DNA of 64,000 nt from Hydrolagus affinis (taxonomy: Eukaryota): contig JAAILG010000894.1 in the NCBI GenBank assembly GCA_012026655.1, forward strand, positions 1 through 64,000, given 5' to 3'. Shown here piece after piece: positions 22,822 through 60,781 of the stretch (its first letter is position 1; each line of letters opens with the position of its first letter). The notes beneath the pieces were generated by a model. It saw nothing but the letters and a program-made list of their open reading frames with translations. It did no database searches and had not been told where the DNA came from. The translations under genes and the position numbers were made by a program.

Positions 22822-24168
22822 TCAGTATTCCCATTCATCTGTTTTCATGTCTAGGTAGGAAAGAATATTCTGAGCAAATTTAACTGCTTGTTTTCTGGCA
22901 ACTTTAGCCCCAGCATTCCCATGAGTTTCGATGGCATCAAGTGTAAGAAGTTGCTTTGTGAGCATTTCTTCGAGTCTTTTATAATTCTTATCATTTCGGA
23001 TTCCATCAAAAGACAGCACTTCTCTCTGATGTACTGACAGGTGGTGCAGTACTTGCCAAACAGCTTTCTGTGAAGGATGTTCCTCTTGACCCTGTTGATC
23101 TAAGCTCTCTCTCTTCGCAAGGGCCTCCTTTAGGTCAACATAAGCAATCACAGACTGTACTTCGACTACTGATCTTCTCCTTGCTTCACGAATGCATGGA
23201 TTTTTACCAATATTGACTTGATCCAACTGAGTAAGAAATCCTTGCAGCTGTGCCTTTGGTTTGAAATAGAGATCAGAGGCATTTTCCGACTTGAGGAGTT
23301 GCTTTTTCAATTCGGTCAATCTTTCACGGATACCCTCTATCTGTCTGATAGAAACATTTTGCGCTAAATCATAACGACCCGCAGATTCTCCCTCGGACTC
23401 CATCTCCAAGTGTTCCAAAAAGCAGTTGATTTCATGAACCACGCGTTTTCGGTAGTTTCTCACCTCCATATTTCCAGTCACATCCACAGCATCTAACTGC
23501 ATCAACAATCCTGTGAGAACACGGGACAGATGTGCACAGTTCTCCAAGTTGTTCAGCCCCATAAGCAGCCCAATCACATCCCACCTTGCTTTACTGACTT
23601 CGCATAAAACAGAGTTAATTTTGGAGACTCCTGGGTGCGTATTCGAAGATAGAGGCAAAGCCAAGGCTTGCCGACCCATGCAGTATTCAATGATGTCCTG
23701 CACAGCGCAGATCCTAGTCAAAGCTCGGTACCTGGCTTTTCTTAAACCAAGTCTCCCTTCAGTTTTTACTTGCGTTAGTTGAAATATGATTTCTTGGATG
23801 TGATCAGCAAAATCTTCAGTTATCAAGCCTTCTGTTGGAGATAGCTCTCTGGTAACCAATTGCTGTGCTTCACTAAAGATCTTAGCTACCCTTAATCGAG
23901 ATGGATGATTTGCAATTTGCTCCAGCTCTTTCAGCAGTTCTTCCACATTCTTTGCTGCTAATTTGCGGGCATGCTGGATATTAGTCTTTCCATCAGTATC
24001 TACTGCATCTAACTCGAACAGAAACCTTGTCAAAACACTTTCCAGATGCTTATATTCTTTATCAGACTTGATACCGCTGAAAGAAGCCACATGTTGCCTA
24101 GATTCAGGAATTTCCTTCTGAATCTCTTCGATTCTAATCATGGAAGGATGTTGCTGACCCATGGCCAT
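22822..24168 (-). CDS. BAG5: BAG family molecular chaperone regulator 5, single coding exon, 448 aa
   Basis: Repeated BAG domains (LxxLDxVDTxG...ARK), N-terminus MAMGQQHP, C-terminus KTDEWEY; splice acceptor ttttgttttcatttcAG at 24202-24201, 32 nt upstream of the ATG; synteny with COA8 and KLC1. Confidence 0.97.
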   Translation of the reverse strand: MAMGQQHPSMIRIEEIQKEIPESRQHVASFSGIKSDKEYKHLESVLTRFLFELDAVDTDGKTNIQHARKLAAKNVEELLKELEQIANHPSRLRVAKIFSEAQQLVTRELSPTEGLITEDFADHIQEIIFQLTQVKTEGRLGLRKARYRALTRICAVQDIIEYCMGRQALALPLSSNTHPGVSKINSVLCEVSKARWDVIGLLMGLNNLENCAHLSRVLTGLLMQLDAVDVTGNMEVRNYRKRVVHEINCFLEHLEMESEGESAGRYDLAQNVSIRQIEGIRERLTELKKQLLKSENASDLYFKPKAQLQGFLTQLDQVNIGKNPCIREARRRSVVEVQSVIAYVDLKEALAKRESLDQQGQEEHPSQKAVWQVLHHLSVHQREVLSFDGIRNDKNYKRLEEMLTKQLLTLDAIETHGNAGAKVARKQAVKFAQNILSYLDMKTDEWEY

Positions 24169-24849
24169 AGTATTCTTCCCCCTAAAGATTCATTGTAGTT
24201 CTGAAATGAAAACAAAACACATTTGTTACAGGTCATCTTTTGAGCTTCAAAGCAAAACTTTACCACCAAAAGTTCTAGCAATGAGGAGTTAGGAAACAAT
24301 AAAGAGCATCAGAAATGTTCCGATTTGTAAAAACACTCCATGCCAACCTCTTCATTCATTAGACATGAAAGTACTTGTAACCTTTATCAGGATTGCCATT
24401 TCACTGATGAATGGATGATAGAAATTGTTATGTCAACAGTACATTATGCCCATATGCTATTCTAAATGCCTAATGATTTTTAAACAAATCATTTAATATA
24501 CTGCTGGATTCCGCAAAAGAATAACTAGGAAATAACTATGTCAGAGCGGCATGTTGAACCTGTCCAATGCATTACATATTCTACCAGGAGAGATGATACA
24601 ATAAGATGCTGGAATAGCATATTAATAATTCCTTTATTGAATTATAAGTGTTCTCTTCACAAAGGAATCAGTCCCCTTGCTCCTTTTCGCCTCCAAGTGG
24701 TAAATTTAGGAATGCCATTAATGAAGACTCAAAATCTTGTCACCCACCAACTAACAACAACTGGGCATCTGATTCAAGAAAGGAAATAAATAAAAATATA
24801 TATTTTTAAAAATGCCACGCTATTTTACAGGGTTAAACAGAGTTATACA

Positions 24850-29166: not shown

Positions 29167-29373
29167 ATGGTCGTGTGTAAACTCGCGGGTTCCGTTGGCC
29201 CGGCTCGGCCTCGGCTTCGCCTTCTCGCCTCCCGGGGGCTGTCAGTGGTTCAAACAGTCCTCCACACTCGGGTGAAGGCGACTGAAGCTGCCGGCGGAGT
29301 CGAACCTCTGTCGGGCAAATGTTATTCAACCGCCACTCGCGGGACAGAGCGACTGAGTGAGGCCGGCGAGAAG
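29167..29373 (+). CDS. COA8: Cytochrome c oxidase assembly factor 8 (APOPT1), exon 1, with an Arg-rich presequence-like N-terminus
   Basis: ATG in good context (aggATGG), MVVCKLAG...EAGEK, donor AAG|gtaaaa, 207 nt phase 0, joins exon 2 in frame. Confidence 0.8.
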
Positions 29374-30717: not shown

Positions 30718-30915
30718 GTTTCAAGTTTTCAGCCTCCAGTAGGCTCACACTTTGACTGGATCGGTCCTCCAGATAGAGTTTCAAACCTAAGACCTATAAA
30801 GTTTTATATTCCAAAGAATGAAACCAAGCTGGAACAGCGGCTGAGGAAGATGAGGCAAGAAACTCAGTATTGGAACCAACATTTCTGGTCGAAGCAAAAC
30901 GTGACCTTCAATAAG
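30718..30915 (+). CDS. COA8: COA8 exon 2
   Basis: tttctag|GTT...AAG|gtaggt, 198 nt; encodes [45 protein letters not shown], the APOPT family signature. Confidence 0.97.
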
Positions 30916-32511: not shown

Positions 32512-32575
32512 GAAAAAGACCAGTTCATACAGTCCCAGCTACGAGCAAAAGGAATGGAATTAAGAGATGAGGATG
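32512..32575 (+). CDS. COA8: COA8 exon 3
   Basis: tacag|GAA...GAT G|gtgagt, 64 nt; EKDQFIQSQLRAKGMELRDED. Confidence 0.95.
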
Positions 32576-33220: not shown

Positions 33221-33311
33221 GGAGAAAAAACACACTGAATGCAGAAGAAATGGCTGAATTTTACAAGAACTTTCTTAATAAAAACCACAGAAAACATGGA
33301 AACTATAACAA
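33221..33311 (+). CDS. COA8: COA8 exon 4
   Basis: ttttag|GG...AAC AA|gtaagt, 91 nt; [17 protein letters not shown]. Confidence 0.96.
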
Positions 33312-33989
33312 GTAAGTAAATCTAATCATTATTGTATAGCAAGAAATGCTGCTCCGAGAGTTTTAAAAAAAAAAAGAGGGGGAAAGAGGTGGGGGAAATT
33401 ACCAATGACAAATGATATCTCCCAAAGTCGTTTTCTGAAATGCAGAGTAAGATTACCTTAATTATTTAATACCGGTGGCTACATATTGCCATTTCAAATA
33501 AAATATTAATTGAAGCTTGATACGTGCTTTATAACCAACATATGCGCTCCATAAATTTGCCTGTATTTTAGTTCACAGATAGATTACTGGGGCAGATGAC
33601 TTAATTGATAATAAAGCTTGCTATTTTTAGAAGGATAAATTGATCATAGTCATATGCCCTATTCTCATTGCTTCAGAGTAGAATGGCAGTACATGTTAAG
33701 TAATTTGCATTCTTGTCTGCCCAGCTGCAAGAACTTGCATCAAAAGGTATTGTACAATAATTAGTATTGGGTGTAGTGACTGTTTTTCTAGCTAGCCAAT
33801 TTACTAGTGGTTTTGTGAATAGTAGCGAAGCTATGAGGCAAAAGGGAAATATTTTTAAAAAGTTGCTATCCTTTTAGTTATCTTCCTAATCATTTGGTTT
33901 GCTTTCTGGATATTCATCATGTAATTTTGCACATAGAATATACTGTATGATCGGGTGCAACAATTAAACTTTGATTTCTCTTTTGGCAG

Positions 33990-34089
33990 GGAATGGTACA
34001 AACGTAACTTTACCATTACATGGTGGATGGGTCAAGTATTCCTGCAAAGAGTTTGGAGGAAGCTGCGATGGAGGAAGGAAACTAGATAA
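33990..34089 (+). CDS. COA8: COA8 exon 5 (last), coding part
   Basis: ggcag|G GAA TGG TAC AAA CGT AAC TTT...AGA TAA; EWYKRNFTIT; total CDS 660 nt = 219 aa plus stop. Confidence 0.96.
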
Positions 34090-34146
34090 TTCTGTTTTTC
34101 CAAATAGTTTAAAACACTGGGGATTTGGAATTTAACTGTACTTTCA

Positions 34147-34195
34147 AATAAATTACTAAGTGCAATTAAAGCTCCAATGCCACACGATGAATAAA
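34147..34195 (+). terminator. Candidate COA8 polyadenylation signals
   Basis: AATAAA at 34147 and 34190 with ATTAAA between them; U-rich sequence downstream. Confidence 0.55.
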
Positions 34196-34943
34196 AATAT
34201 AATATATTTGTATTATTTACTGTTAAGATTTTTTGCACAATTTATAGTGTTTTTGCATAATTTCAAAACTTCAAATGTATATAGCCTTCTGTAAATTCTT
34301 TTCTTGCTGTATTTTCTGGAATCCATAGCAGTAACAGCTGATCAAGAGTCCATCATATCAAAGACTTGGTTCTACTTTTTTATGTTCCCAGGCAAAAGCC
34401 AGTCTGTTTCTCATCATATTTCATTATCGTATTTCAATTAAATATTTAAAAATCAATGGTGTTTACCAATAAATATTTTAATACACAGTATAAAGTATTC
34501 ATTTTTCACTTGCTATTTTCAACATGCATGTCAAATTATTGTTTTATCTAAGGAAATACAACAACACTAATATCTCCTTCTATTGTACAGAAGAACCAAC
34601 TACTATAGAAATGGAAAATATATTGTTTCCATCTGCTTTCTATGAAGTATGCATTATTTTTAAACTGTTGCAAGGACACTTCTAAACATGTTTATTATCT
34701 TTAAGTATTCAAATGTTAACTGCAGAATATTGTCAGTAAAGTTTAGCAGACAAACAGCAACATACTCTCATTCACTTAAACTAGGACATGGGTCCGCTCA
34801 GGACTGCTCATGGATAGTTATTACAGGTAGAAATCGCTTAACGTTGCTTCGGTCAACATTGTTTTGCTATTGCTGATACACAGGGGAACATATATTCATT
34901 TAATGTTCACTATTTTGTCATTTGCCCGGCTGAAAACAAACGA

Positions 34944-35133
34944 CACTTAGTCCTTGCTTAAAATCGCAGTTGCTTTAGTGAAAAATGTGACTTTAAGCAA
35001 AACGGTACTTGAGTAGTGTAGGTGTACATAGATGCTGAATATCCAGTATTCTTGCTAGGGTTCGCTTAACATAATTTCGCTTAAAGTCACACTTTTCGAG
35101 AACACAACCGTGACGTTAAGCGAGGACTAAGTG
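34944..35133. mobile_element. Tc1/mariner (Tigger-like) MITE, about 190 bp
   Basis: TIRs cacttagtccttgcttaa / ttaagcgaggactaagtg, inner inverted block gtgactttaagc / gcttaaagtcac, TA on the right flank. Confidence 0.8.
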
Positions 35134-35295
35134 TACATAAGAAGTTTTAATTGGAGAAGATGATTCAAACCACTCGGGGGTTTCTAAACAGTATTTATAT
35201 CTAGTATTTATATTAAATTAATTTTTAATCTCATTTGAATAACATCTTCAGAATATTTATTTTAAGTGTGAAAAGGTGCCATAAGTTGCACTCTT

Positions 35296-35393
35296 AAATA
35301 TACAGTCAATTCACTTTACAGTATATGCTCAAGTGCTCTGAGATATCTAGAAGATGTGAAAAAGCGCTATATCAAATGCAAGCATTATTATTA
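35296..35393 (+). mobile_element. SINE 3' tail
   Basis: aaatatacagtcaattcactttacagtata...aagcgctatatcaaatgcaagcattattatt. Confidence 0.8.
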
Positions 35394-35805
35394 TAAGCAA
35401 GGTATTATTTAACATTTTTAAATTTACATTTTATAAACTTTTGGGGATTTGAGAATTAAATGAAATTGTTTGGAGAATAATAATATTCCTTGCATTTGAT
35501 ATACTATACTGCCTTATAATTAAAAAAAATGTTGTGGTTGAATGTTTAAATACAGGTTTGCACCTGAGATGCTAACCAGCATTTGACATGCAGTGCATTC
35601 CCACCAATATGTTATTGCATTCATATAAATCGAGAGCAGTTTTTTTCCATTTTTATAGATATATACATTATACACACAAAAAAAACACAGGAAAGGGGAC
35701 CCTGTTTCATCCTTCTCATCCCCCTAACTGAATATGATATAATGCTTTTGCATTCATTACAATCTGGTACAGGATGAGTGGGCAACTGTGCGGGGGAGAG
35801 GGGAG

Positions 35806-35973
35806 AATAATAATAATCCTTGCATTTTGATATATAGCGCTTTTTATGTCTTCTGGGCGTCTCAAAGCGCTTCACAGAATATACTGCAACGTGAGTTGAC
35901 TATACAATATTTTTTGGGCGAAACGCGGCAGCCAATTGCGCACAGCAGCGTCCCACAAACAGTCGCAGATTGA
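35806..35973 (-). mobile_element. SINE 3' half immediately upstream of the KLC1 promoter
   Basis: aataataataatccttgcatt...gcggcagccaattgcgcacagcagcgtcccacaaacag. Confidence 0.85.
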
Positions 35974-36059
35974 AGTGAGAAAGCAACTGAGTGAGAAAAG
36001 GGAACACATTCAATCCTTCATCTCTGTCACGGTTGCTGTACATAACATTGCTCTGTGTG

Positions 36060-36380
36060 TGAGAGAGATGATTGACAGGTGACGGCGGTTGGGTGGGGTG
36101 GGAGGGGAGTGGGTGATTGACAGATTGACGTCAAGTTCCCCCCGCGCAGAGTGCTGTGGGTAGGGAGGCAGCGCCATCTTTTGCCCGAGAAGGAGCGGCG
36201 CCGGGGCTGAGGCGAGTGGCGCAAAGGGCGAGGAGGAGGAGGAGGAAGGAGAGGCGGGGGGAAGGGGGGGGGTGCGGCCTTCAGAACATCTGGAAATTTC
36301 CATCAGACACACAGCCCCGGAATTAGGCACCGAAAAGGACCGGACTAGCAGGCGGTGGATGTGAAATATATAAATACGGC
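36060..36380 (+). promoter_or_regulatory. KLC1 CpG-island promoter
   Basis: GC/CpG-rich; TGATTGACAG twice (36069, 36114), CRE TGACGTCA at 36126, YY1-like CGCCATCTT at 36172, TATATAAA at 36367. Confidence 0.7.
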
Positions 36381-36640
36381 CTTGTACCTCCATCGTCACC
36401 CCCACCATCACCCCTCTCACTCTCTCTCTATGCGGCGGTGCCGGAGCCGCTGATTTTTTTTCTAACCGGCTTGGCCTCTGGCCAACGTTAAGCAGACACA
36501 GAGAGACAGCGAGAGAGAGAGAGAGAGAGGAAGGAAAGAAAGAGTCAAGACCACTTCTCCTTTCCATCAGACTGAAGACACAACGTCTGCAAGTCTTCAA
36601 GTCTTCTCCCCTCAGCGGACCCGTTTCTTTTCATATCACG
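36200..36640 (+). other. KLC1: KLC1 non-coding exon 1 (start approximate)
   Basis: Donor ACG|gtaggt at 36640/36641 at the end of the CpG island; exon 2 has an acceptor 1 nt before the ATG, so an upstream exon is required. Confidence 0.6.
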
Positions 36641-39600
36641 GTAGGTCGGTGGGGTCGGCAAACGCCGAGTGATGGGGAGGGGATGGAATGGGAATCAGGC
36701 GGAGGGTGGGAGGGGAGGGAGGAGGCGGCTGTCACTTGGTGGCTTTGGTTTCTGGCCACACGGGCGCTGGCGTATTGATTGATTTGTACAGATCGCTATC
36801 ATCTGAAATGCACCCAACCCTCTCCCCCCCAACCACTCCCACCCTTGTTTATACCGTCCACGTCCTTGGAGTTTTATAACCGTATCCGCATTTCTATTGC
36901 ATTTTTGTTTAGAGAGCCGTGTTATTACTTTCGGTTCCTATCGAGAATATTTGTTCCCGAGATGTGTCAAACTGAGAGTGGATCCCACTGGCGACAGATG
37001 CAGCTCTTAGACGTTTCCATGGGAATTTAGTTGATGCTGAAACGACTGTCCTATTTAGGAGTGCGGATTCTGAAGCGAGGAAGTTTTTAGTTCTTGTGTG
37101 TTTTAGCTTTTACAACAAGACACGGAGGACTAAACATGTTTTTTTGGGGGTGGGGGAGGATTGTGCGATTGTGAGTCATTTCCTTGTGAAATGGAAACAT
37201 CGCCAAACGTATTTTATTTTGTGTGCCCTGTTATACTTGTTTTGGGGGTCGGTTTATTTTACATCGATTATATCTTCCAGATACAGCGACTTTGCTTTAA
37301 CATTGACGATTTGAAACTAGTCATTCTCGAGGCCAGGTTGAGTTTTGGGTCTAACAGGATTTGAGCAAGAAGATCTTTTGAGAAATCGTTAGGAAACGTG
37401 TTGGGTTGGTTGATTGCATAGTCAGTCGGGTTTGATATTCTCTCTAAGACTACAGGATTGTGCTTTTATTTGGCAAAAGAGTTCAGATCAGATATGTTGT
37501 AATGAAATTTTCCCTTAACTATTCAGGCATATTTTTGAAAGAAAGAAAAAATTGTAAAATATTGCCATTTTCTCTCTTCTGATGGCATTTTAACTCCCCT
37601 TTCTCTCTCTTGTTGCTTTTCTACTCATTAACACAAGGCATTTGTGACAATTTTATAGCCTCAACTGCTGTCTAATCTGAGTTCAACTAACAGCACAGAT
37701 TGAATTTTGAGCCTGTGAGTTCCATGGCCTGGTGCTACAAAGGCATGTTATACTTTTCCAATATACTAGTTGGTGAAGATTGGATTATCAACTCCAACAA
37801 CTAGTGCACTGGAAAAGGAAAACTATGTCTTTAAATTGTTTTGAATTTTATATTTTTATGAAACAAGTGTTTAGTAACCTTAGCTGATTTAGATTAGTAA
37901 CAACAAAGTCATTTTATCAACTGATACACTACATGGTTTATGGAAGAAATTATTTAGTTTTCTCCTCATTTTAGAATGCTAAAACCAGACCACTCCTAAA
38001 CTTGTAGATTGTAGACCACCCAAAAAAAACGAGTTGTCTTACCTACTGAGAGCCATTTTCAGATTTCTATCCATATTGGTTGATGACAAGAGAACTTCTG
38101 TATGCAAGTACATTTGAAGTTACTGAACATTCAGTTGTCTTGAAAGGGTGTTTCCCTTAATGGCTGACACACCTCCAACTGAAAAGCTACATACTGATTC
38201 CTCACAATAGCATTTTATCCTGTTTTAAAATAATTTAAATGAAAATAGAACTTTTATTTGCCCTTAAGTGCAAATAAAATGCACTTTTAATACAGATGTT
38301 TCTAAAGTGTATTTAATGAAATATTAAAGATATATAAATCACTTGCAACTGTAAGTGTTGACCAAGTGTGATTTGTAGCCTGAGAAAAGCACTGATACTG
38401 CACCAGTGTACTGTATGTTTGCCACTGTTCAGTGCCTTGGGAAGTCCTCCTCACATGAAAGGCGCTCTATAAGTGTAATTTTGTTGTTGCTGTAGTGTCT
38501 TTAGGGCTGTCTGGTAGAGAATTTTATATCATGTCATATTAGTGACAGCTGAGCCAGATTTAATGTTTGTTTTGCTCTTTCCATTCCTGTCTAATTGGAC
38601 TGAGACATAGGCAAGAGTGAAAAATCCTTTTAATCCATTAGGGATGAAAGACCTGGGTTGTCAGTGATGAATGGCTGAGTTTGTAATGTCTTCCTAGCCA
38701 CTGAAATCAATGGGATTGTGTCTGATCTTTATGGTGCGCTTATATTTCTGCCGTTGGTGATAAAATACGTGATAGCTTTCATATTAAACAGTGAATATGC
38801 TTTGATTTTAGAGAGAAAAAACCTGGTGATGATGATGAGCTGTTTATTGTGTGCCTAAAGTGATTACTGTATATCCCCTGCAGAATTATACTATTCATCA
38901 GTTGTTTGAAATCCAAACTCATTCCAGCTTTCAAAGCAGAGATAGTAGATTTAACTTAATTTGAACCTATGTTCCAGTGGATTTGATCTTTTCGATGGCT
39001 GACTTCAGGTTTACAATTCCTGTGACTTCGTACAGGAATCTATCCAGTAATGTTATACAATAACGCTTCTTATGAAGCTAATCACATAACACCCAAGGGA
39101 TGGTTGGCCTTGCAGCTAGAAATATCATATATGTATTTGGCTTGCAACTGGAAAAATATGTAGCCAAGAAATGTCATTATGCTGAAAAAGTTTTTAAAAT
39201 GCATATAATTTACAAATATGACAGCTATAGATGTTGCCATGCTCATAAAATTAGATGAAAAATTTAAATAAAGGTATTGCTAAGTGCAACATAGTTGTTT
39301 TCGTACAGTTTAAGCACTCTATATAGTTTTAAGTTTCCAGGTTTGATCCTTGGTCTGTGCTAAGCTAGCTGATCTCAGTCAAGATATCAGTAAGAATACT
39401 ACAAAATACTCACTAGCTCTCCTGTCTATGGAGTAGAAAGTCAGTCAGGCAGAGGTTATGAAGCTACCCATGATTGTAGCGCCTGTTAAGACTCTCAGTC
39501 CTCCCATGATTGTACTGGCCGTACAATCATGGGAGATACCACAATTAGCTCTGGTACCGTACTCTGGTATATTCACACATACTTTATGGCAATGCCTGGA

Positions 39601-39974
39601 ATTCACTATTAATTTTTAATATAAAAATATTCTCATGGCAACCCTGACAAAATTGAAGTTATTTTACTTGGCTTTTGTAAACTTCTTCATCTGACTTCAG
39701 ATTGCTCAATCCTGGAGCTTTGTTTGACCCGCAGATTTCTGTCAAAGTCAATAACTAGTTAACCAAGACTATTTTCCTTTCTGTCCAGAATATTGCCTGG
39801 TTCCATCCCTATTTTTTTTGTGTGAAAGATGTTCTAGTGCTATTTGTAGTGATATTTACCTGCCTTTAATCCAAAATAGATCTGTACAATTTGCTAGGAT
39901 TTCTTTAAAGTATCATTCCTTATTTCAAATAAATCGTCATTGCTTAACATTTCTTAGCATCACTATCACTTTTA

Positions 39975-40100
39975 AAAAAAATGCAGGAGTATGGGGAAAG
40001 AATGGGGAGTTGGACTGATTGGGTCGTTCTTCCAAAGAGCTGGCATAGGCATGATGGCCTGAATGGATTCCTTCTATGCTGTAATAATTTCTGATTCTAT
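39975..40100 (+). mobile_element. CR1-type 3' end
   Basis: tatggggaaag...gagctggcataggcatgatggcctgaatggattccttctatgctgta...ttctatg. Confidence 0.7.
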
Positions 40101-43100
40101 GTTTCATGGAAACCGTGGGATATGCACTACTAATGCAGTGTGTTTAGTGTTTGGGAAGATTTTTCAAATGCGTCAGGCACAATTCAGCAATAGCCTGCTA
40201 AAATTATTCTGCTTAATGCAGTGCTCAATGAATCAAAAAAGGTTTTAGTCTATCTAGCGTGTGAAGTTGGTTATGTTCGGAGAAGCAAAAGCAAAACAAG
40301 TTGCTGTTGAATCATTTTGTATCCCTTGTTTTCTGGTTATTTGTCCGTTCCTTTAGCTCAGGTTTGGAAGCATCATCGTTACGCATCAGTCAATTTTCTA
40401 AAGAAGAAATCTGATTGTCTGTTCCCTGTTGTGTAATTGCACTACTGGAGAGATTGAAATCTGGTCAAGTGATTCCATCCTATATTAACCAATCTGCACA
40501 AATCCGGTAGTCCAGAAATGTAAATTATCCTGAACAGTATTGGTGTGCTTTTCTTCTATATGTGTGTTAACTTGTTTGCCCACTTTATTTGACAAATCAT
40601 GTTGGATTTCCAAATTATGACTATTTTGTCGATATAAATTATTAAACAAATATTGATTTTTCAGGCAACGATCCAAAAGTAATTTGGTGCATTTTTATCT
40701 GCCAAATGGCACTTGATCTGATACTGCATAAAGCACTGCAGTGCTATTGTACGCTTTATCTTATGCTACTGTAATCCCTTTGTTATTAAAATTAGTTGCT
40801 GGTGTGTCTATAAAATCCATTTTTAAACACAAACAAAATTATGAGAAAACATACAATCAGTCACTATGCAATCAAATCCTTTGTTTGTTGCTTTATGGCA
40901 ATTCCAGCAACAATGAAACATAAATTGAAGGTGGGCAGAGAGTAAGGAGTAATGCCATGTCTGTTGATGAGAACATGTTGTGTTATTGCCTCTGACACAA
41001 GGGACACAAATTCCCTTGTTGTTGGTGGGATAGTATAATGACTATTCAGCACAATTTGGTAATCCTAAGCAGTGCCAGAATCAGCTATACTGTAGTGTGT
41101 CTCTTGTGGCCAGCCCCAGGTTGATTGCCACCCAAAAGATAAGACAGCTGAGTCCTCATTGTATGGATCAAATGGAACCTGTCATCTTCCCATTTTCTTG
41201 TTTTTGTAGGTATGATTCTCGGTGCTCTTTTGTAAGCAGAAGAGAAGCTGAAGGAATATTTCTCCGCCAAATAGCTTACAGAGCAAGTCTAGACATTTCA
41301 CTTCTGTCTAATATCGACAGTGCATCATTGTGTGCTTCAATTTAATATGTACTGATTGTGCTGAATCATAAGTTTCTTCTGATTTTCTCTGCGGCCTAGA
41401 GGATATAAAATGATTTAGGAATGCGACTTTTTAAAATTTTAATTTAAATTTCTAATAAAATGCCACAGGCACAAGAGTTAGCATTCTGAGATTGCTATGT
41501 TCATAGACATGGCTTTTTTTAAATAAATGTGACAATTTCATGATACATTGGATTATTTGGGTTAACATAAAGCAGTCTTAAGACAAATTGGGTAAAATGT
41601 GGGGTCATTGCATTTATAATGCCAAACTATGCCACAAAAGTGTTATTATTAGCTTGTTTTTACTGTCCACAAAAGCTTGCCTGATAGAAGAGCCCAAAGG
41701 AAATGACCAGCATTCAGTGCTAAATGGGGGGAAAAGAGACACGGTAGTGTGTTCTCTGTTTCTGCTGATACAGAATTTAATAGCAGGAAGTTGCGGAGAT
41801 AATGGTGCTGATTGTGGGCCATTTCCTCACTGATGATCCTTTTATTCTAAAACAAGCTTTAAAATTCAGCTATTGGTGTTGAGAATTTTAATTGCTGTTC
41901 TCCCACTATAAAGTAGCTAGTAATCGCAGAATATTTTGTTGATACTAGATTACAAACTCTTGCACCATAAACCAGTTAATATTAACCAGTACTGTAATGT
42001 GTATGTTAGAAAATAACTTAACATATGGTATACTGTAAATATGGTGGTTAATGGACCAATTTGAGGAGCACTATATAAATATAAATGTAAATTGTATGTA
42101 GTTCACAGCCATTTGGGGGAAATAATTTGTTAACGTAGGGAGAAGCAATTTAAATTAGACAATGTTTAATATGTTAATTGGGTTTTGAAATCTTCAAAGT
42201 CTATTTCTAGCTGATTATGATCTCCTCCCAAAATGAAAGGAGCTGTAGAATGAATGTGTCATTTTGCATGTGTTCTTTACCATTGAAATGTTGCTAGGAA
42301 AATGTAGGGAGTTTGAATTTGCTGATTTTAAGGCTATTGAAATAGAAGTATTTTGACAAACTAGTGAAATCTAGGCTATTGTCTCCGCTAATTTAACGTT
42401 GTGAAAGATGTAAACGAAGCAGGCACTCCTCAAGAACAACAACTAGGGTTATTATCCTGCTGATTCACACCCATTAATGTCCTCATGCTGCTGCAATTTC
42501 TTAAAATGGCTGTGAGGATGAATCTGTTTTGCTTCTGTTGGATTTAGAATATTGTTGTTTTGAATTCCTGGGTGTTCAGCCATAATTGCAGATTTAGATG
42601 AAAAATAAGTCTTTGTTCAGAATTGTTAATTTGCACTTTACTCTTCAGGGAATGCTATAAAAATGACAGTGTTCTCTGGTTTGTGAAGTGTTCTCTGTGG
42701 TGCCTATGGCTAGTTGACGTCAGGACATAACTATTCCCAACAGTGTTTTCACCTTCAGCATATTGCCAGTGAGCAATTAATGATGATCTTTGATACATAA
42801 CGATATTAAATGTATGTTGCAGCCAAAGTACAGGAAGCTGCTGCTAGCTACAGTGAGGTGGATTCATCTGGGGTGGATGAGCTCCTCAAAATGAATCCAC
42901 AGGATACAATTCAAATTATATTTGGTTGCTGTGCAGCCTGGTTTTATGTACGATCAATTAATGATAACTGGCACAATGGAATTTTCTATAGTTGAATTTG
43001 GGGTCTATTATATTAAGTACTGTAGTTTCTGAAATGCACATTAGGTATAATGCTGCATTAAGGTGGTGAATGGAAAAAGCAGTGGTATATTAAAGGCTTC

Positions 43101-44620
43101 ATCACCTTCAAGTACAGAATGCAAAATCTATTTTAAGATTGTTAAAAAACCTGTAGAATTTTTATGCAAAGATTTTGGTTTCTGTGCTAATGAAATATTT
43201 TGCTTGTGAGAGATTGATGTTTCCAACAACATACAGATGATGAATAATAAAGGTGTGTCTTCCCATCAAATTAGTAATTATAGTGACAGAGAGGTGATTT
43301 TTGAAAAGTGGGCAAATCAGTCTGTATATTGTTGCAACAGTAGAGCAGGCCCTTGAGACATCCCACTGACCAAGGATGTTAATGTTTCACCAGTAACCTC
43401 TTGCTGAAAAACAAATGTCCGCATGGAAATCAATGCAATCTGAGAGGCATTTCTGTCTAGAGTTTGACTTAGTGTTTTGAAACTAACGGATCCTGATTTT
43501 TTTTTAAAAAAATGATGTGGTAGTCTAGTTTGCAATGTCCAATTTCCTGTTTCTTTTGTTTTGTGGATATTTTTTACTTCTGGAAATCTTGTGCCTCGTC
43601 TGCTCTTGCATATTTTTCATTTGATGGTATCAGTTTACAGTAGAATCGGCTTGACGTTATCAGTGGCGAATGATCTTTGTAGAGTGAACATGTCGGTGTT
43701 ACATGTTCATTTGACCTGAGAGAAATTACTATCCACTTATGGTATAAATACCAAACAGTACTTTTCTATTACAGTATTTAGTTAATGTACTCCCCATTGA
43801 CAATCACCTGATTCATCTTTAAAACCGCATGCTCCAGCTCAGCAAAACTGCCTTTTAGAATTTTAAATCTAATTTACAAAATATGCAGACTATTTCAAGT
43901 TCTCTTTTGAATCTGTGTCAAGAATGCAGCAATTTCATGATGAGTTGTTTATTCTAAGTGATTTGCTGATTTCTTGCGCTTCATCAATCTGCTGGCAATG
44001 CTTAGCTGGCTCCCCACTGTAATTGAGTTTTCATAGAAACAGTGTACATTTCTCAATTTCTAGCTCCTTATGAGGCACGTTAGAATTCCAGAGAAGGAGC
44101 TGAGAGCTCCCTTCTGTAGTGGGCACTGTCCTGCTAATTCCCAATGTGTCATATAAGGTATAACTTTTGTTCCTCTCCCACCATCTCTATGTCGAGTGTG
44201 CTGTGCCGAGTGATTTAGATGAAGTTAGCAATTTAATGGGGGAAGCCATACATTAAATGCTAGTCGAAGCAGAATTTAAATCTATGATGATGTGGGTTAC
44301 TTGACAATTTAACTGCCTTTAACATGGATAATTAGAATGCAATTTGGATTGAGATTTGTAACAAGAAATTCTAATTGTCTGACATTTGTTTTGAGCTTGT
44401 AAAATCATTTATCTTGATTAACAAATATAATTGCTTTTAAAGTGTTTTTACAAAATAACTTGTGATTTTTTTTAAAAAAACTAGTGTTTCTGCGTGTGGA
44501 ACGCTTCTGAGATATATATGAATGTATTGTGTTCCCCCTAATTATGCTTCTAAGAAATTAGAGTTCAGGACAATCCTTTTCATTAATTTAATATTTTCTC
44601 TCATTTCTTTTCTCCAAAGG

Positions 44621-44881
44621 ATGCATGACACCATGTCCACAATGGTGTATTTGAAAGAAGACAAACTAGAAAAACTTTCCCAGGAGGATATAATTGCCAA
44701 AACAAAACAGGTGATCCAAGGACTTGAGGCCTTAAAAAATGAACACAACTCCATATTGCAGAGCCTGCTGGAAACGCTAAAGTGCCTGAAAAAAGATGAC
44801 GAAAGTAATCTGGTGGAGGAGAAATCCAACATGATTCGCAAGTCCCTGGAAATGCTAGAGCTTGGTCTCAGTGAGGCACAG
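44621..44881 (+). CDS. KLC1: Kinesin light chain 1, exon 2 (first coding)
   Basis: ccaaag|G ATG; MHDTMSTMVYLKEDKLEKLSQEDII...LGLSEAQ|gtaacc; 261 coding nt. Confidence 0.97.
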
Positions 44882-46021: not shown

Positions 46022-46315
<294 letters not shown>

Positions 46316-46775
46316 TAGGATATCCCATCATTTAAAGGCTTCTTGGTTCATTTAAAAAAAAATCTGGTTTCATAGCGAAGTGGGATTAAATTTTAACCGA
46401 CTGATTGTTTTTACACACATATACTCTTCCCTCAACACCCTCTTTCTTACAGTGGGGAAGGTGTATGATTGCTGATTTGGAGCCTGATTTTTAGCTGAGT
46501 TTGGAAGTTAGGTTTTCGAGCCATTGTCCTTTCACTTGCTATAAAGCTTTGGCAAACCAATGTGCTGTTCTACCTGCACAGTTAGTTTTAAAGATGCTTC
46601 ATAAAATGTGCCTTGAAGCTTTTATTTATCTGAGGCACTAAGGTCAACATAGTTACATTTTTTTCAGAGGTATTTCTCTACAGTTATTATCCAGTGGATT
46701 GGTGGCATTCTCCCACGAAGGAGTTAGATACAGATTCACAACCATGGTTTGCCATAATCTTGAATTTAATCATCA

Positions 46776-47064
46776 TAATAATAATCGTGCATTTGATATA
46801 GCGCTTTTCATGTCTTCTAGATGTCTCACAGCGTTTCACAGAATATACTGTGCAATGAATTGACTATATATGTGGGCAAAACGGGTCAGCCGGTGTCCCA
46901 CAAACAGCCGCGGATTGAAATATCCGATTTATTATCGTTCTTTTTTTGAGGGATTATTATCAGCATGTGGAGTAAGGAAACAAAAACGTTTTGCTCTGCC
47001 TGGAATTGACCCCAGATCTTTTGCCTGTAAGGCAAGTGCTCTACCCACTGAGCTACAGGACTCC
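46776..47064 (-). mobile_element. Full-length SINE in KLC1 intron 3
   Basis: Tail to head, ending ...ccactgagctacaggactcc. Confidence 0.9.
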
Positions 47065-47205
47065 CCTGTGTTGGTATAGAAATAGTTTGATTGACTTGAA
47101 TTAGTAGATTTAGTTGCTGGGAACTGCAAACAAATATTTATCAAGTAGGAACAGTACATTAAATATTCAAGTTCCTTACCCTGTTTTTGTATGAAAATCT
47201 TGTAG

Positions 47206-47284
47206 GAGGAAAAAGACAGTGATTCATCCAAAGAAGCTCTGGATGACCTTTTCCCAAATGAAGAGGATGAACCAGGACATGGAA
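47206..47284 (+). CDS. KLC1: KLC1 exon 4 (LFP-acidic linker)
   Basis: tgtag|GAG...GGA A|gtaagt, 79 nt; EEKDSDSSKEALDDLFPNEEDEPGHG. Confidence 0.96.
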
Positions 47285-47819
47285 GTAAGTGTTCAGGAAA
47301 AACTAGAAGAGGCATTTGTCTAAGTTCTTTCTAAAAGTCATTCAATTGATTACATTTGAGGTTTTTTTTTAAAAAAAGAAAATCAAATGTGCTGTTAGTC
47401 TGTTGGAACGAAGGTTCGAAAGAAAAGCTTTCATGGTTGAATTGATATATTGGAAATCTTATTCTGAAATGCGGAAGAACTATAGCCTGTGATGTTACTA
47501 AAGGTCTTGTCGGTTTCAGGGGGTTTCACCTTAGATTTTATTTCCCTTCAGTGGTACAGAATAACACATAGTGTGGTTTGCTTTCACATTTAAAGTGTGG
47601 CGAGTTAGGGCTTGTCAATTTAAATATTATTATGAAGAAGCACGTTTGTGGTTTGTTGTCCCAATCACCATAATTTACATTGGTTGGGCTACATTAAAAT
47701 AAAACAAATACAGTATGGGTCCCGGTATGGGAACAAATAAAGTGCTCGTCTTTCAGAGGTGAGAATTAGCCGTTTATTTTGTTTGTTGGTATTAAGTATT
47801 TATAATTGTCCCTGGCGGC

Positions 47820-48291
47820 ATTTATAGGCTTGGATGAGTGAGAACTTCCTGCAGCTGATCATGGACAAGACGGAGGCAACACTTGTTGGCTCCTGTCAAC
47901 ATCTTCACTCCTGTGGTTCTAAACTAGGCTCAACCACCCCCACCCCCCCAGGCTCTCCCTCAGACTCACCGAACCACCCGGCTCAACCCAGACCAAACCA
48001 CGGGGGCACCTCCACTCGACTAGCACCAGCCTCCTCCTCATCCCTCGCACCCTTCACCCACAATTGAAGGTCGCTCTTTCAGTCACACTGCTTCAAAACT
48101 CTGGAACAATCTCTCTATCCCTCTGCCTTGCCCCCTTCCTCCTCCCTTTGAAGTCCTGCCTGAAAACCTTCCTCTTCATCTATGCTTACGGCCACTTCAC
48201 CCCCCGTTCTCCCTCAACTCACAGCTCAAAGTAGGGCTGCTTTGAGACCTACTCGGCATGCAGGGTGCTATATAAGTGCAAGTTGGTGTTG
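47820..48291 (+). mobile_element. L2 LINE 3' fragment, internally deleted
   Basis: WMSENFLQLIMDKTEA matches the L2 ORF2 motif WM..NFLQLN..KTE; pyrimidine-rich 3' UTR and tail gtgctatataagtgcaagttggtgttg. Confidence 0.8.
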
Positions 48292-48856
48292 TCCCTGGAC
48301 TGCAACATTATTCCATTGTTCCCACTATAGGGGTGCAATTAGACAAAAGATCCAATTTAACAAAGAATCATTCCAGTGAGATTCAAAAGTAGAGACATAG
48401 AGACATTGCTTTCATTAAGGAATTCGGCTCAATTATGATATGAGCTTCCTCTGTAGTTATTATATATTATTATAGTTATTATAGTTGAGGCAGTCTTTGG
48501 AGCACTTAATGGTTCCTTAACTTCCGTAAAATGAGTGAACGGAAAAAATGTGTTTGATTCAGCGCTCTTATGTTTTGCTGAGCGAATGGAACCAACATGT
48601 CACAAGTGCATGCTTAGGGTAAATCGAATAGATTTTCAGCAGGGTTGCAGTGCAGTTCTGTACTTTAAATGAGGTATTGATTTGCAGAATATTCATCGTT
48701 ATTGTGAATATTATTTGCTGAAAGCTTTCCTAGATTGGACATTGTTTTATTTTTAAAACAAAAAGGTGAAATATTTGAATGTAAGCGAGATCTACAAAGA
48801 TCTTGGTCCAACATCCAGTGTTTCTGTACTAAAGTAATATTCATCTTTTTTTCTAA

Positions 48857-49126
<270 letters not shown>

Positions 49127-49702
49127 TGAAGATCATCCATTGTAATGCTTGTACAAAGTAAATGCTGGTACCACTAATGGCTTAATGAATTATTCCTTTT
49201 TTGGTTAGACAAGTTGCCGAAGAAATTTGATGCGCAAATTTATCAGTTTAAATACTGGAACTTTTTTCTAACTGGGGCAGAGGATGGTAGTTTATTTCAC
49301 TTCTTGACGGTTCAATTTGAATCTTGTACAGAATGACAGGATGATTATGATTATATGATAGGATGATATGATTATCCCTGTCTATTATCTGTAAGCATCC
49401 AAAATAAGTGGCAGCCTGAATTATTTTTCTGCAGTATGTGGCCCTGTAGCAAAGTAGTCTGGGGTTTTTCAAAAAAGATATTTGAAAGGAGTAAGTAAGA
49501 ATGAACCTTTGAAAATGTGTTTAATATTGCTAAAAGGAATGAAAGTCCCTGTATTAAACAAAGGCATTAAATTATCCATTGATTCTAATACTGTACCATG
49601 ATTAGACAAATTTTGAATGTCATTTCTGCTCATTTTTATAGTTAGTGGATATTGTGTGTGAAATATCTCCTATTACCCATTGCACAACAAAGCTTACAAT
49701 CA

Positions 49703-49828
49703 CTGTTTGTGGGACACTGCTGTGCTCAACTGGCTGCCATGTTTCTCCCACAAAATACACTTTACAGTATATTCTGTGAAGTGTCTCGAAGACATGATAA
49801 GGTGCTATATCAAATGCGAGGATTATTA
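49703..49828 (+). mobile_element. SINE 3' half with deletions
   Basis: ctgtttgtgggacactgctgtgc...gtgctatatcaaatgcgaggattatt. Confidence 0.8.
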
Positions 49829-49932
49829 TCATGATAGTCACAAATAAAATGTAGGCATCAATTGGAGGCTGTACGTTTTGAACTTTGTGTGTTCGATAAA
49901 AACTGCAGAGTTCAATATGTCTTTCAATCTGA

Positions 49933-50094
<162 letters not shown>

Positions 50095-50417
50095 TAAATA
50101 TTTCTCCATGTTAAATCAACAGGCCGATGTTAACAACTACCATTCCTTTATGATGACCAGGTAGGGAGGTCAAATTGTGAGTCCTTCAATGGTTCGGTTA
50201 TGGAGAATTATTATGTGCACACTCTTGATAAGTGCATAGTCTTTCCCAAATCATATTTGCTTGCAAGTACAGTATGATGGAGGACCCACGCTGATTTTTC
50301 ATTTGATTTTTAAATGCTGATCTCCAATGCTCTCTGACAAATGTCTACACTGCTTGGTTATGCAAAAATAGGAAATTGCGACTTTTTTGTTGTTTTGAAT
50401 GCAATTTGATCTTTTAG

Positions 50418-50666
<249 letters not shown>

Positions 50667-51649
50667 TGAGCTGCTTAAAATCCCTAGTCCAACTATGAAT
50701 GGTATGAAATATCAATTAATAGAAGATATTAGATTATTCAATGCATATCAAGATTAAAGAGGGTTTGATCAAAATAAAATTTATGGTTTACACAGTAAGA
50801 CACAGGTTTGACTTGCATGATGGTAGAATAAGGCCCAAATATTTCTCAGTAAGCCACTTGAGCTTCATTTCCAAAAAAGGGAAAGACTGAAGCTGGTGTC
50901 CTGTCAGACTTGGATTCTGAAAGAGAAGAGAAACTTTATTTCACAGAGGGCATTTTTTTTTAAAAAAGGCGTAGAAAAATAGTCTGATTTTGTTCAAAGG
51001 TCAATTTAGCCTTTTCATAAATTTGATTTCACCAATGTACTATTTACGTTGTTCTTGTCTTGCTGTGCACTAAATGTCTTGCCTACAGTAACTGCTAAAC
51101 CAGTATTGATTTTATTTTAGAAATACGAATCTTGTGTGTCAGACCTAATTGCATTAGATGCTTGCTTTTGTTAGCTGCTTTTGTTAGCTGTTTTTTTTAA
51201 AAGAGCGAGCAAAATAAAAGCCCCTTGATTGATGATACATTAATGCAATGTGAATTTGGAACCATATGCTAGTCAGAGGAACGTTTGAAATTCCTTTGAA
51301 TGCCACCTTGCAGTTTGCTTAATAGCATTGGCATTAGGCAGCATGACCTCAGTAGCCTAGTAGACCCACTGACATCGCTGTGAACTACTGGTGCAGTTTA
51401 ATATTGTTATTTCAAATGTGAGCTATAAATCTCAGCTATTAAGCCACTTTTATCTTTGAAATTGATTCATTACTAGATCTTTGACTGTGTCAATGCAAGT
51501 CATGGTGTGGCCATTTTCAAATGATTGTTTTGAATAGGGTAGCGTTTAAACATATTGTTGTATATTGCATTCAGGAAAAAATACTATGAAATGTGTTTGA
51601 TCTTTATGAAGGATTGTTCAATTAATGTCTAATGTGCTTTCCTCCTTAG

Positions 51650-51883
<234 letters not shown>

Positions 51884-52286
51884 TAGCAGAGCACATTATT
51901 AACCAGCGGTACACTTGGATTTATTTTAAATATATTTATTAAGAAGCCCAGTTTATATGTTTAAAAAACTAATTTAATGTAAATTGAGATAATAATTCAA
52001 AGTGATTTATTGCAGCTTCTCATGATAATGAGAAATGTAAAGGGTCCCAAGGTGTGTATGCTGGTATTTGTAAAACTGATTGTGTTATAAATGGGAAGCA
52101 CTCAAACTTGGTGTCTAATGCATGATTATCACCAGATTATCGAAATGAGATTGGAATGTATTCGACATATGCATTCAACCTAAGTGTGGATATTTCCCAT
52201 TTGTCCATAATGAAGTGTGAAAAACATGGTATTAGCAAATCAAAAATTCCTTTCCAAAAATGTCTTGACGGTGTTTTTTTTTCTAG

Positions 52287-52391
<105 letters not shown>

Positions 52392-53145
52392 TGAGTATTG
52401 GAAAATAATTAGTTTTTTTTTATCACAAGTAATCGGTGTTTCCTGAACAGCAACAACAAAATTACATTTGTATAGTGCCTTTGACATCAGGTATAGTCGA
52501 AGAGGAGGTACTTGAACAAATGGAAGTTAATTTATCTCAAGTCTAGACTCCTGACGTGAAACACGCTATACAAGTGTAATTTTGTTGTTGTTGTTGATTT
52601 CAATTTGACCCCTGATAGAAATTCTTTCTCTTTTTTTCCCCATTGGTGGAGACAACAAATAGGTTCCCTGAGTTGTTGTTAACCAATAAATGGGTTAACA
52701 AGTAAATAACTTTCCCCCCCCGCACCCCCAAAAAAAATAGATTGCCGATGGAAGTTCAGAAAGTAACCTCCTTTCCCATCCTCCTTTCATTCTGCTCCAC
52801 AAGGACCAATAGTTGTCCCTGCCTTTTGCATATTATTTAAATCCAAGCATTTGGATGGAAATAGTGTCCTTCCACAAAATGCTCAAACATGTCTACCATG
52901 AATTAAAAGGAGTGACCAGCAACTATTCGAGCAATTGAGTTTTGTTTGGAAATTTCTTAGTGAAAAATTACATTGAAACAGCACAAATCAATTGGCATGA
53001 GCACAGTTGTAAAAATATTTGTTGGAGCTCATGGACCTTGTAGCAAACAGTTAATTAAGTATAGTCTGTCTGAGGAGGGCGCCATGTGTGAAAGGTTCAA
53101 ATTTTGAAACTGAAAATCTCAGTCACTTTATTTTTCTTCTTACAG

Positions 53146-53198
53146 ATGAAAATAAACCCATTTGGATGCATGCTGAAGAAAGGGAGGAGCAGTGCAAG
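53146..53198 (+). CDS. KLC1: KLC1 exon 10
   Basis: tacag|AT...AAG|gtactt, 53 nt; ENKPIWMHAEEREEQCK. Confidence 0.95.
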
Positions 53199-53549
53199 GT
53201 ACTTTCATGACCTATGCCAATGGTGCATTTGGGCAGAGTTCAAGAAGTTTCTTGGGTTTGGATAGTCTTGCTAAACTCTATTTCAGTTTGTGGAAACAGG
53301 TAGGCTCAGTTCCACATGTCCCCTGGTGACATGGCTAAAATTAAGAAGTAACAAAATGGGGAACAGGCCACTCCAAGGCAGTGTTATCAAGAGTTTGTTT
53401 TTTTAAAACACTAGTTGATCATAATAGACTGAATTTCTGAGTCTTAATTTATATTACATATAGTTGCAACAATGTCGATTTTTAAAAAACGTTTTTAATT
53501 CAAATGGCTTCAAACTCAGAAATACTTTCTCATTCGTTTGCCTTTTTAG

Positions 53550-53617
53550 GGCAAACCAAAAGATGGGACCACATTTGGCGAGTATGGAGGCTGGTACAAG
53601 GCATGCAAAGTTGATAG
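53550..53617 (+). CDS. KLC1: KLC1 exon 11
   Basis: tttag|GGC...GAT AG|gtgagt, 68 nt; GKPKDGTTFGEYGGWYKACKVD. Confidence 0.96.
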
Positions 53618-54304
53618 GTGAGTTTCCACATACTTTTTTTATATAGAGATGTGTTGAATACTTTGCTTAGCATTGACCTCTCATATGCAGCATTCATATA
53701 AATTGTCAAATTAATTAGTTTTCCTTTCACATCCTTCCTTTCCTTTAACATCACCCAAATATTCTTTTCTCTGTTTTCACCCTTGGTGACCTCCTGCACT
53801 ATGGGCTTCAGCCCTTCGTCGAGGATCTCAGTAAATCCAGATTTTCAAATATACCAAAGGCAGCTGAAGAAGAGGTCAGAAATTCAGGGTTGTGAAGGGC
53901 AAGTTTAAGAGCAGGAAATATTTGTTTACACAGGTAGTAATGGAACGAATGGGTTGTAAGGTGGTATAGGTAATCTGATAAGACTGGACGAATTAGGTCA
54001 AATAGCCCAAAGGAGCTTTGGAATCCGAACCACTCTTGTGACAATGTGTTTATGCAGAACATCCTGAGGTGCAATGATTCAATTGATTTCTTTCTATTCT
54101 TGTTGTCAGCAGGTCTTGGTTAGGTAGTGTACAAACTGACGGTGAATAAAGAAATGATCTCTTGTCACCTATCTAGTTTACAGATATATATTGGAACATT
54201 CAGGCATTGGAGTTTATGTCTGGATTCCTGTCTCGATAGAGGCCGGAATGCATTTAATTACATTTTTTAATTCTCTTCTGTCTTAACATCAGTTTATACA
54301 TATA

Positions 54305-54994
54305 CAGTAGAAGCCCGTTTATCCGTGACCCGATCAACCGTACTTCTGTATAACCTGCACCGCAAAAAAAAGGTCTGCATTTGATAAACCGGAATTTATC
54401 CAGAAAAATGCATTTTTTTTGGTGTTTTGTGTTGCGTCAGTATTTTGGAATGCTGCTACTAGGTGCCTAATGTTGGCGCTAGCTCAGAATGGTGCTGGTA
54501 CTCTAAAGCAATGCACTCTCCGGAGTGTACTCTTTGAGAGGCAGAGTGGGGTGAGTTGATTAATTTAGATTTAATTTAGCCACAAAACAGCAAAACACAC
54601 ACCCACCCTGAGCAAAGTTTGCAGATCAATTCATTGGCTTTTATTTTAATAAAAAAGACTCATCCCTGCAATGCTTGTTTTACAGAGTGCAGTGTTTCAA
54701 CTTAGTGCACACACACACAGGCATCGCAAGGCTTTTTGGAAAGAAAGTTAACTGAACTGAGCAGCCGCCGCTCACTCTCTGCTTTCTCAATAACACGAGC
54801 TTTCCTCTCTTCTGCCCCCGATGAGAACAGTGTCATTCAGGCGTGTAACTTTTGCACTAGTTTAAAGATCTCTGAACTGCCTGATCGCTGTGTGTAAAAT
54901 GATTATAGTTATTATTTATATATTATATAAATGATTATTTAATGTATTATTAATTTGCTATGTTTTTTAAAAAAATTTAAACGAGCTTCTACTG
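54305..54994. mobile_element. Non-autonomous Tc1/mariner (Tigger/pogo-like) DNA transposon, about 690 bp
   Basis: TA|CAGTAGAAGCCCGTTTA ... TAAACGAGCTTCTACTG|TA: 17-bp TIRs with 1 mismatch and a TA target duplication on both sides; no ORF. Confidence 0.88.
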
Positions 54995-55398
54995 TAATAT
55001 CATTTTGCCAAAGTCACAGCTAAACAAGCATTGCTCATAGTTGGCAAAAGAAGAACAAATCCATCTAGTTTATTGTTAAACAGCTATTCACATTGCTTGT
55101 AACTATGGGGACATTTTTGACGCTGTAAACACAACTGGTCTTTATATGCATTTTGAAGCTTGAGCACCTGATTGTAGGTGAGCACCAAAATCCAGTTGGC
55201 TCAGAGCTAATCTGGTTGTACCATTATGGTAAAATAAGAGCAGCCGACATTGAATAGAAAGTTCCTGATACATTGGAAATCAATTTTCTGTTGAGTTGCA
55301 CCCGTCAAATAGATGTTCATTCGTGAAATGTAATTCATTGATGGAAACGTGTATCAAATACTGGAATGAGGGACCACAAAAGTGAAAATTGTTTTTAA

Positions 55399-55542
<144 letters not shown>

Positions 55543-60694: not shown

Positions 60695-60781
60695 AAAGGG
60701 GTGAAACCATGAGAGCTGCTCCAGAGCTATAGCACAAAAGGAGACTTGAAATGGTTATTCTGCACAATCTTGAGATTTCAC

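What the first reader, a model, noticed from the sequence alone, without database searches (positions are those of the whole stretch)
33221..44881. COA8 exon 4 would splice in frame onto KLC1 exon 2, a potential presequence-bearing kinesin light chain fusion
Seen: COA8 exon 4 ends in phase 2 (AAC AA|). KLC1 exon 2 begins with exactly one base before its ATG (ag|G ATG). Skipping COA8 exon 5 and KLC1 exon 1 gives AAC AAG ATG CAT..., i.e. 187 COA8 codons fused to complete KLC1 with no stop. I recall a COA8(APOPT1)-KLC1 read-through transcript annotated in human. Inference: if the phase match is kept from cartilaginous fish to mammals, the chimera may be ancient and could tie kinesin-1 to mitochondria. 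Caveat: phase compatibility has a 1-in-3 chance by luck, and each gene's exon phases may be conserved independently.
Basis: partly seen in the sequence, partly recalled or inferred. Interest (0 to 1): 0.7.

Follow-up and report, generated by a model that had tools for sequence, protein, structure and literature searches.

The report
In-frame COA8-KLC1 read-through splice option
Two neighbouring genes, one for a mitochondrial assembly factor and one for a kinesin motor light chain, have exon ends that fit in frame, and the same fused protein is already modelled in databases for many vertebrates, but it is likely a minor read-through by-product rather than a working link between motors and mitochondria.

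Summary
COA8 exons 1-4 give 560 coding bases and KLC1 exon 2 starts one base before its ATG, so skipping COA8 exon 5 and KLC1 exon 1 gives a stop-free fusion. It is not new. 25 retrieved database models from 18 named species (mammals, birds, turtle, lizard, gar) have this exact junction, and it follows the common second-to-last-exon to second-exon read-through pattern. The junction was not seen here: the RNA joint table was swamped by repeat reads. Depth shows COA8 exon 5 at about exon 3 level and KLC1 exon 2 at 0.84-0.96 of KLC1 exon 1, so any fusion is likely minor in that one sample. The conserved phase needs no selection on the fusion: one side is a coding intron, the other an acceptor one base from a usually kept start codon. 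The tether idea is weak: COA8's C terminus lies in the matrix, its precursor is proteasome-degraded, and the fusion cuts a conserved helix. Verdict: real frame match, known kind, function unshown; interest 0.3.

The parts
22825..24189 (-). BAG5 open frame (stop to stop), head-to-head with COA8
   Evidence: Pfam BAG E=1.9e-55, 4 stretches
29167..29373 (+). COA8 exon 1 coding part; presequence-like N terminus (net charge +7 over residues 1-38)
   Evidence: CpG-rich bin 29001-30000; targeting inferred, not tested
30718..30915 (+). COA8 exon 2
   Evidence: Pfam COA8 PF10231 E=3.4e-24
32512..32575 (+). COA8 exon 3 (64 nt)
   Evidence: RNA depth 27/61/16 at 32531
33221..33311 (+). COA8 exon 4, phase-2 donor; 5' side of the possible chimeric splice; internal Met at 33250 is in frame with KLC1
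33990..34089 (+). COA8 exon 5 coding part, lost in the fusion; most of a long conserved C-terminal helix
   Evidence: estimated RNA depth 20/63/19
34147..34473 (+). COA8 3' end signals: AATAAA at 34147, 34190, 34468; ATTAAA at 34165, 34437
   Evidence: antisense first mates pile up at 34402 and 34429 in run X3
36150..36640 (+). KLC1 exon 1 (non-coding, CpG-rich; 5' end approximate), donor GT at 36641; two short upstream ORFs
   Evidence: RNA depth 13-27 at 36624-36628 and about 0.03 in the next bin
44620..44881 (+). KLC1 exon 2: one base, Met1 at 44621 (weak context in the normal mRNA), Met5 at 44633 (A at -3); 3' side of the possible chimeric splice
46052..63973 (+). Remaining KLC1 coding exons in the window (coiled coil, TPR repeats), intact by tblastn against an anole KLC1

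Best explanation
COA8 and KLC1 are two intact, separately expressed neighbours whose exon 4 donor and exon 2 acceptor match in frame, and the fusion is likely a low-level read-through by-product without a role of its own. Shown: gene order, frames, both genes expressed, COA8 3' end signals, the same junction in other species' gene models. Inferred: now and then polymerase runs past the COA8 poly(A) sites across about 2 kb into KLC1. KLC1 exon 1 has no acceptor, and the COA8 exon 4 donor pairs with the strong KLC1 exon 2 acceptor 11.3 kb away. The mRNA is in frame, so it would escape nonsense-mediated decay and be seen by annotation pipelines. Its protein would carry the COA8 presequence, lack COA8's last 32-33 residues, and most likely be degraded by the proteasome or imported into the matrix, where KLC1 cannot meet kinesin heavy chain or microtubules. 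The phase match persists because each side is held for its own reason.
For: Fits all four cis-SAGe rules of PMC4450057, which found chimeras at 4 of 20 random pairs meeting them. RNA depth (3 runs, one sample, 27-30% of each read): KLC1 exon 2 / exon 1 = 0.96, 0.89, 0.84; COA8 exon 5 / exon 3 = 0.74, 1.03, 1.16; KLC1 exon 2 / COA8 exon 3 swings 0.19-1.41. Exon 5 holds Trp and Asn at 93% and 85% in an 83-sequence COA8 alignment and most of helix 151-191 in a confident model (pLDDT 86.8). COA8 precursor is UPS-degraded and its C terminus is in the matrix (PMC6328941). KLC1 keeps Met at position 1 in 90 of 98 records, which would fix the acceptor one base upstream. None of 116 newly listed short hits to the junction region spanned the junction; these were the best 120 of 218.
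Against: No junction read was seen in this organism, so even low-level read-through is unshown here. 25 models in 18 species carry the exact junction, 11 species in RefSeq, which may mean it is more abundant in amniotes than a by-product; their read support could not be checked. The match is KLC1-specific: the KLC4-like paralog has acceptors 11 or 3 nt before the equivalent Met, neither in frame. Hare has lost Met1 (Val) yet keeps the frame. Depths of 10-60 from binned means cannot exclude a sizeable minor fraction, and only one sample was seen.
Confidence: 0.6

Rival explanations
1. The splice is not made in this organism at all; the frame match is a coincidence of two conserved exon ends, and many database fusions are annotation merges or projections from a human model.
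For: No junction seen. COA8 has five poly(A) signals within 400 nt of its stop. 2 of 27 fused models use other, doubtful joins (king cobra, Chinese hamster), so merges happen at this locus. No cartilaginous-fish or teleost fusion record was retrieved.
Against: The joint table hid 2199 rows, so absence was not tested. RefSeq 'isoform X' models usually rest on RNA alignments (own knowledge). The protein searches used turtle and bird queries and are word-limited.
Confidence: 0.2
2. The chimera is an ancient, selected isoform: the COA8 presequence engages the import channel while the KLC1 part, bound to kinesin heavy chain, stays in the cytosol and couples kinesin-1 to mitochondria.
For: Same junction from gar to mammals and in frame here; gene order BAG5-COA8-KLC1 as in human; paralog not in frame; frame kept after Met1 loss in hare; KLC1 has other reported links to mitochondrial transport (PMC10600463, passages).
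Against: Matrix-side C terminus and rapid degradation of COA8. A stalled import intermediate would block the channel (own knowledge). Kinesin-1 already has Miro/TRAK and metaxin adaptors. Low apparent abundance. No paper found.
Confidence: 0.1
3. The read-through has a regulatory use: it diverts COA8 pre-mRNA from exon 5 and lowers active COA8, or yields a KLC1 with a short N-terminal extension and no presequence from the strong exon-4 Met.
For: The exon-4 Met at 33250 has G at -3 and +4 and is in frame with KLC1; 2 of 25 junction models start there (P0164, P0181). Skipping of the 64-nt exon 3 is a human brain splicing QTL (PMC5333373 supplement) and here would end the COA8 frame at 140 codons, just before that Met.
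Against: Re-initiation after a 140-codon frame is inefficient (own knowledge). Exon 5 depth matches exon 3, so little diversion. The short models may be longest-ORF picks.
Confidence: 0.1

Closest known systems
COA8(APOPT1)-KLC1 fused gene models in public databases (e.g. XP_011847179.1 drill, XP_062037055.1 hare, XP_054057343.1 kittiwake, XP_039393186.1 turtle, W5MUU7 gar)
   Same: Identical junction: end of COA8 exon 4 joined to the first coding residue of KLC1 exon 2.
   Different: Those are annotations of other species; here only the frame match is shown. The human read-through locus names used as search terms (RP11-73M18.2, AL139300.1, ENSG00000256500, E7EVH7) are recalled; one search shows only that the middle two are one gene, and no human fusion sequence was retrieved.
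[quoted passage not shown]
   Same: Same-strand neighbours, under 30 kb apart, active 5' gene, second-to-last exon joined to second exon, in frame.
   Different: Frame match and gene order appear kept across a far wider range of vertebrates than that paper examined in the passages read; junction RNA not demonstrated here.
Mitochondrial kinesin-1 adaptors Miro/TRAK and metaxin-KLC (PMC10600463)
   Same: Would link kinesin-1 to mitochondria, if the bold reading held.
   Different: [quoted passage not shown]

Membership tests
cis-SAGe read-through chimera | Same-strand neighbouring genes | tested here: met
cis-SAGe read-through chimera | Intergenic distance under 30 kb | tested here: met
   COA8 stop to KLC1 exon 1 donor 2551 nt
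cis-SAGe read-through chimera | 5' gene transcribed | tested here: met
   stranded RNA depth 16-61 on COA8 exon 3 in 3 of 3 RNA runs of one sample; that its organism is the window's species is not established
cis-SAGe read-through chimera | Second-to-last exon joined to second exon at canonical sites | tested here: met
   GT donor at 33312, AG acceptor at 44618-44619; as a possible splice
cis-SAGe read-through chimera | Chimeric RNA observed across the junction | tested here: inconclusive
   joint table showed 15 repeat-derived rows and hid 2199; no ordinary exon joint was shown either
COA8 family (PF10231), fusion product | Pfam COA8 match | tested here: met
   window exon 2 85.7 bits; macaw and drill fusions 138 and 147 bits; intact hare COA8 174 bits
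COA8 family (PF10231), fusion product | Complete conserved C-terminal helix | tested here: not met
   exon 5 residues 160-192 of helix 151-191 are replaced
Mitochondrial kinesin adaptor | Outer-membrane anchoring with the motor-binding part in the cytosol | not testable with these tools
   published COA8 topology points the other way
Mitochondrial kinesin adaptor | Stable protein that binds kinesin heavy chain | not testable with these tools
   needs proteomics and co-precipitation

The most novel reading that the evidence does not exclude
An in-frame COA8-KLC1 read-through has been kept since early jawed vertebrates because its product is used: a presequence-bearing kinesin light chain, stabilised like COA8 by oxidative stress, that couples kinesin-1 to the mitochondrial import machinery. 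It sits unstudied in databases under the name KLC1 isoform.
Probability: 0.1. Interest if true: 0.8.

Novelty: new member of a known kind. Interest (0 to 1): 0.3.

Why it matters
If only a by-product, it matters for annotation: many 'KLC1 isoform' entries in vertebrate databases begin with COA8 (11 of 15 listed members of one 105-member cluster), which can mislead proteomics and isoform-level genetics at a locus tied to schizophrenia (PMC7069985, PMC5333373). If functional, it would be one of the oldest conserved protein-coding read-through chimeras and a new route from kinesin-1 to mitochondria. It is cheap to test with existing RNA-seq and proteomics data.

Tried and rejected
Run search: no RNA holder listed; three raw-read RNA runs were added. 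Direct junction test: only one lay of reads succeeded, at 82% likeness, and repeat reads at about 33040, 35300-35980 and 38450 crowded out all exon joints; the question stays open. Fold of the macaw fusion: pLDDT 61.5, junction 153-178 under 50, 22-sequence alignment; not used as evidence. ESM Atlas on KLC1 exon 2: no hit at 0.9. Representative search with COA8 exon 2: 0 of the best 150 (of 406) held KLC1 sequence. A third KLC paralog lies on a 1.5-kb contig without its first coding exon. Bacterial promoter scan was irrelevant. Supplements of chimera surveys: no hit in PMC4824105 (4 files, 1 more not searched) or PMC3041646 (7 files); PMC7038929, PMC8064075 and PMC4450057 gave almost no text and PMC2953495 none, so their lists were not seen. 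Earlier scan findings: none relevant. Rejected: platypus P0162 as a fusion (its COA8 part runs through exon 5); P0177 and P0178 as examples of this junction.
Full report
1. Observation. The window holds BAG5 on the minus strand (Pfam BAG), then COA8 and KLC1 in tandem on the plus strand, the order reported for human 14q32 (PMC8319724, passage). COA8 has five coding exons giving 219 residues. Exons 1-4 sum to 560 nt. KLC1 exon 2 (44620-44881) begins one base before its ATG. Joined by coordinates, exons 1-4 plus KLC1 exon 2 give 822 nt without a stop, and codon 187 is Lys as at the native junction. Only the exon 4 donor, of four, is in frame. The match alone is a 1-in-3 event. The taxon was not tested.

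2. RNA. The run search listed one unlabelled contig set and three stranded single-cell RNA runs of one sample. One lay over 32480-44930 succeeded, reading 27-30% of each RNA run. Exons were covered on the expected strand with few differing letters, so the organism is the same or close; this is not established. The joint table showed 15 rows, all from repeats, and hid 2199, so no exon joint, native or chimeric, was visible. Depth is still informative. COA8 exon 3 had 27/61/16 reads at 32531; exon 5 is estimated at 20/63/19; the 3' end of KLC1 exon 1 had 15/13/27; KLC1 exon 2 is estimated at 14/12/23 (bin means scaled to exon length). Exon 2 thus follows its own exon 1 (ratios 0.96, 0.89, 0.84) and not COA8 (0.53, 0.19, 1.41), and exon 5 is about as deep as exon 3. 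Coverage stops at 36640, which places the KLC1 exon 1 donor. COA8 has five poly(A) signals between 34147 and 34468, and reads pile up near the last ones in one run. Any chimera is likely minor in this sample; these depths cannot exclude it.

3. Relatives. Searches for long COA8 relatives returned 14 and 14 proteins, and cluster look-ups added more. Among ids P0151-P0381, 27 records join COA8 to KLC1, and 25 have exactly the exon 4 to exon 2 junction. They come from 18 named species: hare, drill, tarsier, squirrel, hedgehog, hyena, false killer whale, two falcons, kittiwake, ptarmigan, prairie chicken, Muscovy duck, two parrots, a pond turtle, an agamid lizard and spotted gar; 11 of these are RefSeq models. 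The other two (king cobra, Chinese hamster) use different joins. In one cluster 11 of 15 listed members (of 105) are fusions. These are gene models; their read support was not visible. No shark, teleost or amphibian fusion was retrieved, but the queries were turtle and bird proteins. A search for short proteins over the junction listed 120 of 218 hits; none of the 116 new ids had both halves.

4. Why the phase is kept. The COA8 side is a coding intron. On the KLC1 side, 24 of 25 unfused records that extend upstream have Arg just before the Met1 position, as expected when the acceptor AG plus one base precedes the ATG (records mostly unnamed and not independent). Position 1 is Met in 90 of 98 records and Val in 8 (7 hare models and one unnamed record). 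While Met1 is kept, the acceptor has one base of room, so the frame is held without selection on a chimera (inference). Against this: Met1 has a weak context here (C at -3 and +4) while Met5 has A at -3; 16 of 16 KLC4-type records begin at the Met5 equivalent; the KLC4-like paralog of this genome has acceptors 11 or 3 nt upstream, against 13 for KLC1; and hare keeps the frame after losing Met1. So the four-residue extension and the frame match are KLC1-specific. That fits either reading.

5. What the protein would do. The COA8 N terminus looks like a presequence (net +7 over 38 residues). [quoted passage not shown] The fusion point lies nine residues into helix 151-191 of a confident model of hare COA8 and drops a Trp and an Asn that are 93% and 85% conserved. 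The product would therefore likely be degraded or carried into the matrix, away from heavy chains and microtubules. A surface tether would need a lasting import arrest. Kinesin-1 already reaches mitochondria through Miro/TRAK and metaxins (PMC10600463, passages). The fusion fold was too uncertain at the junction to use.

6. Known kind. The case meets the four cis-SAGe rules of PMC4450057 (passages), which found chimeras at 4 of 20 random pairs meeting them and 5 in-frame against 6 out-of-frame among coding fusions. The defining evidence, a junction read, is missing here.

7. Literature. Ten searches gave no paper on this chimera, judged from listings. PMC9166476, PMC5774689 and PMC11025590 (passages) only list recalled locus names; PMC13501980 (passages) does not name either gene. 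PMC5333373 (passages and supplement rows) reports a brain splicing QTL for the 64-nt exon, not the chimera. Supplements of PMC4824105 and PMC3041646 had no hit; those of PMC7038929, PMC8064075, PMC4450057 and PMC2953495 were largely or wholly unreadable and may list it. The library lacks most subscription journals.

8. Verdict. The frame match is real and widely kept, the fusion is already in databases, its expression here is unshown and likely low, and the tether function is unlikely (0.1). New member of a known kind; interest 0.3, or 0.8 if a functional isoform were shown.

Noticed in passing
window 44621-44635: KLC1 has two candidate starts: Met1 in weak context in the normal mRNA and Met5 with A at -3. 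The four-residue extension is absent from KLC4-type paralogs, and hare has Val at position 1.
   Followed up: partly
window 33250: The COA8 exon-4 Met is in strong context and in frame with KLC1; two database models (hare, parrots) start there, giving KLC1 with 21 extra residues and no presequence.
   Followed up: partly
window 32512-32575: The 64-nt COA8 exon 3 has the length of the exon whose skipping is a human brain splicing QTL linked to a schizophrenia locus; skipping here would end the frame at 140 codons.
   Followed up: partly
window 33040-33080, 35296-35395, 35806-35980, 38420-38495: Copies of a very abundant short interspersed repeat, heavily represented in poly(A) RNA reads on both strands; one lies just upstream of the KLC1 promoter.
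   Followed up: no
window 36359 and 36430: Two short upstream ORFs (start-stop; 7 codons) in KLC1 exon 1.
   Followed up: no
L002 (G000:C8698) and L005 (G000:C100539): A KLC4-like paralog with a compact first coding region, and a third KLC paralog on a 1.5-kb contig.
   Followed up: partly
window 22825-29373: BAG5 (single coding frame, 455 codons stop to stop) lies head-to-head with COA8 around a CpG-rich region, as in human.
   Followed up: partly
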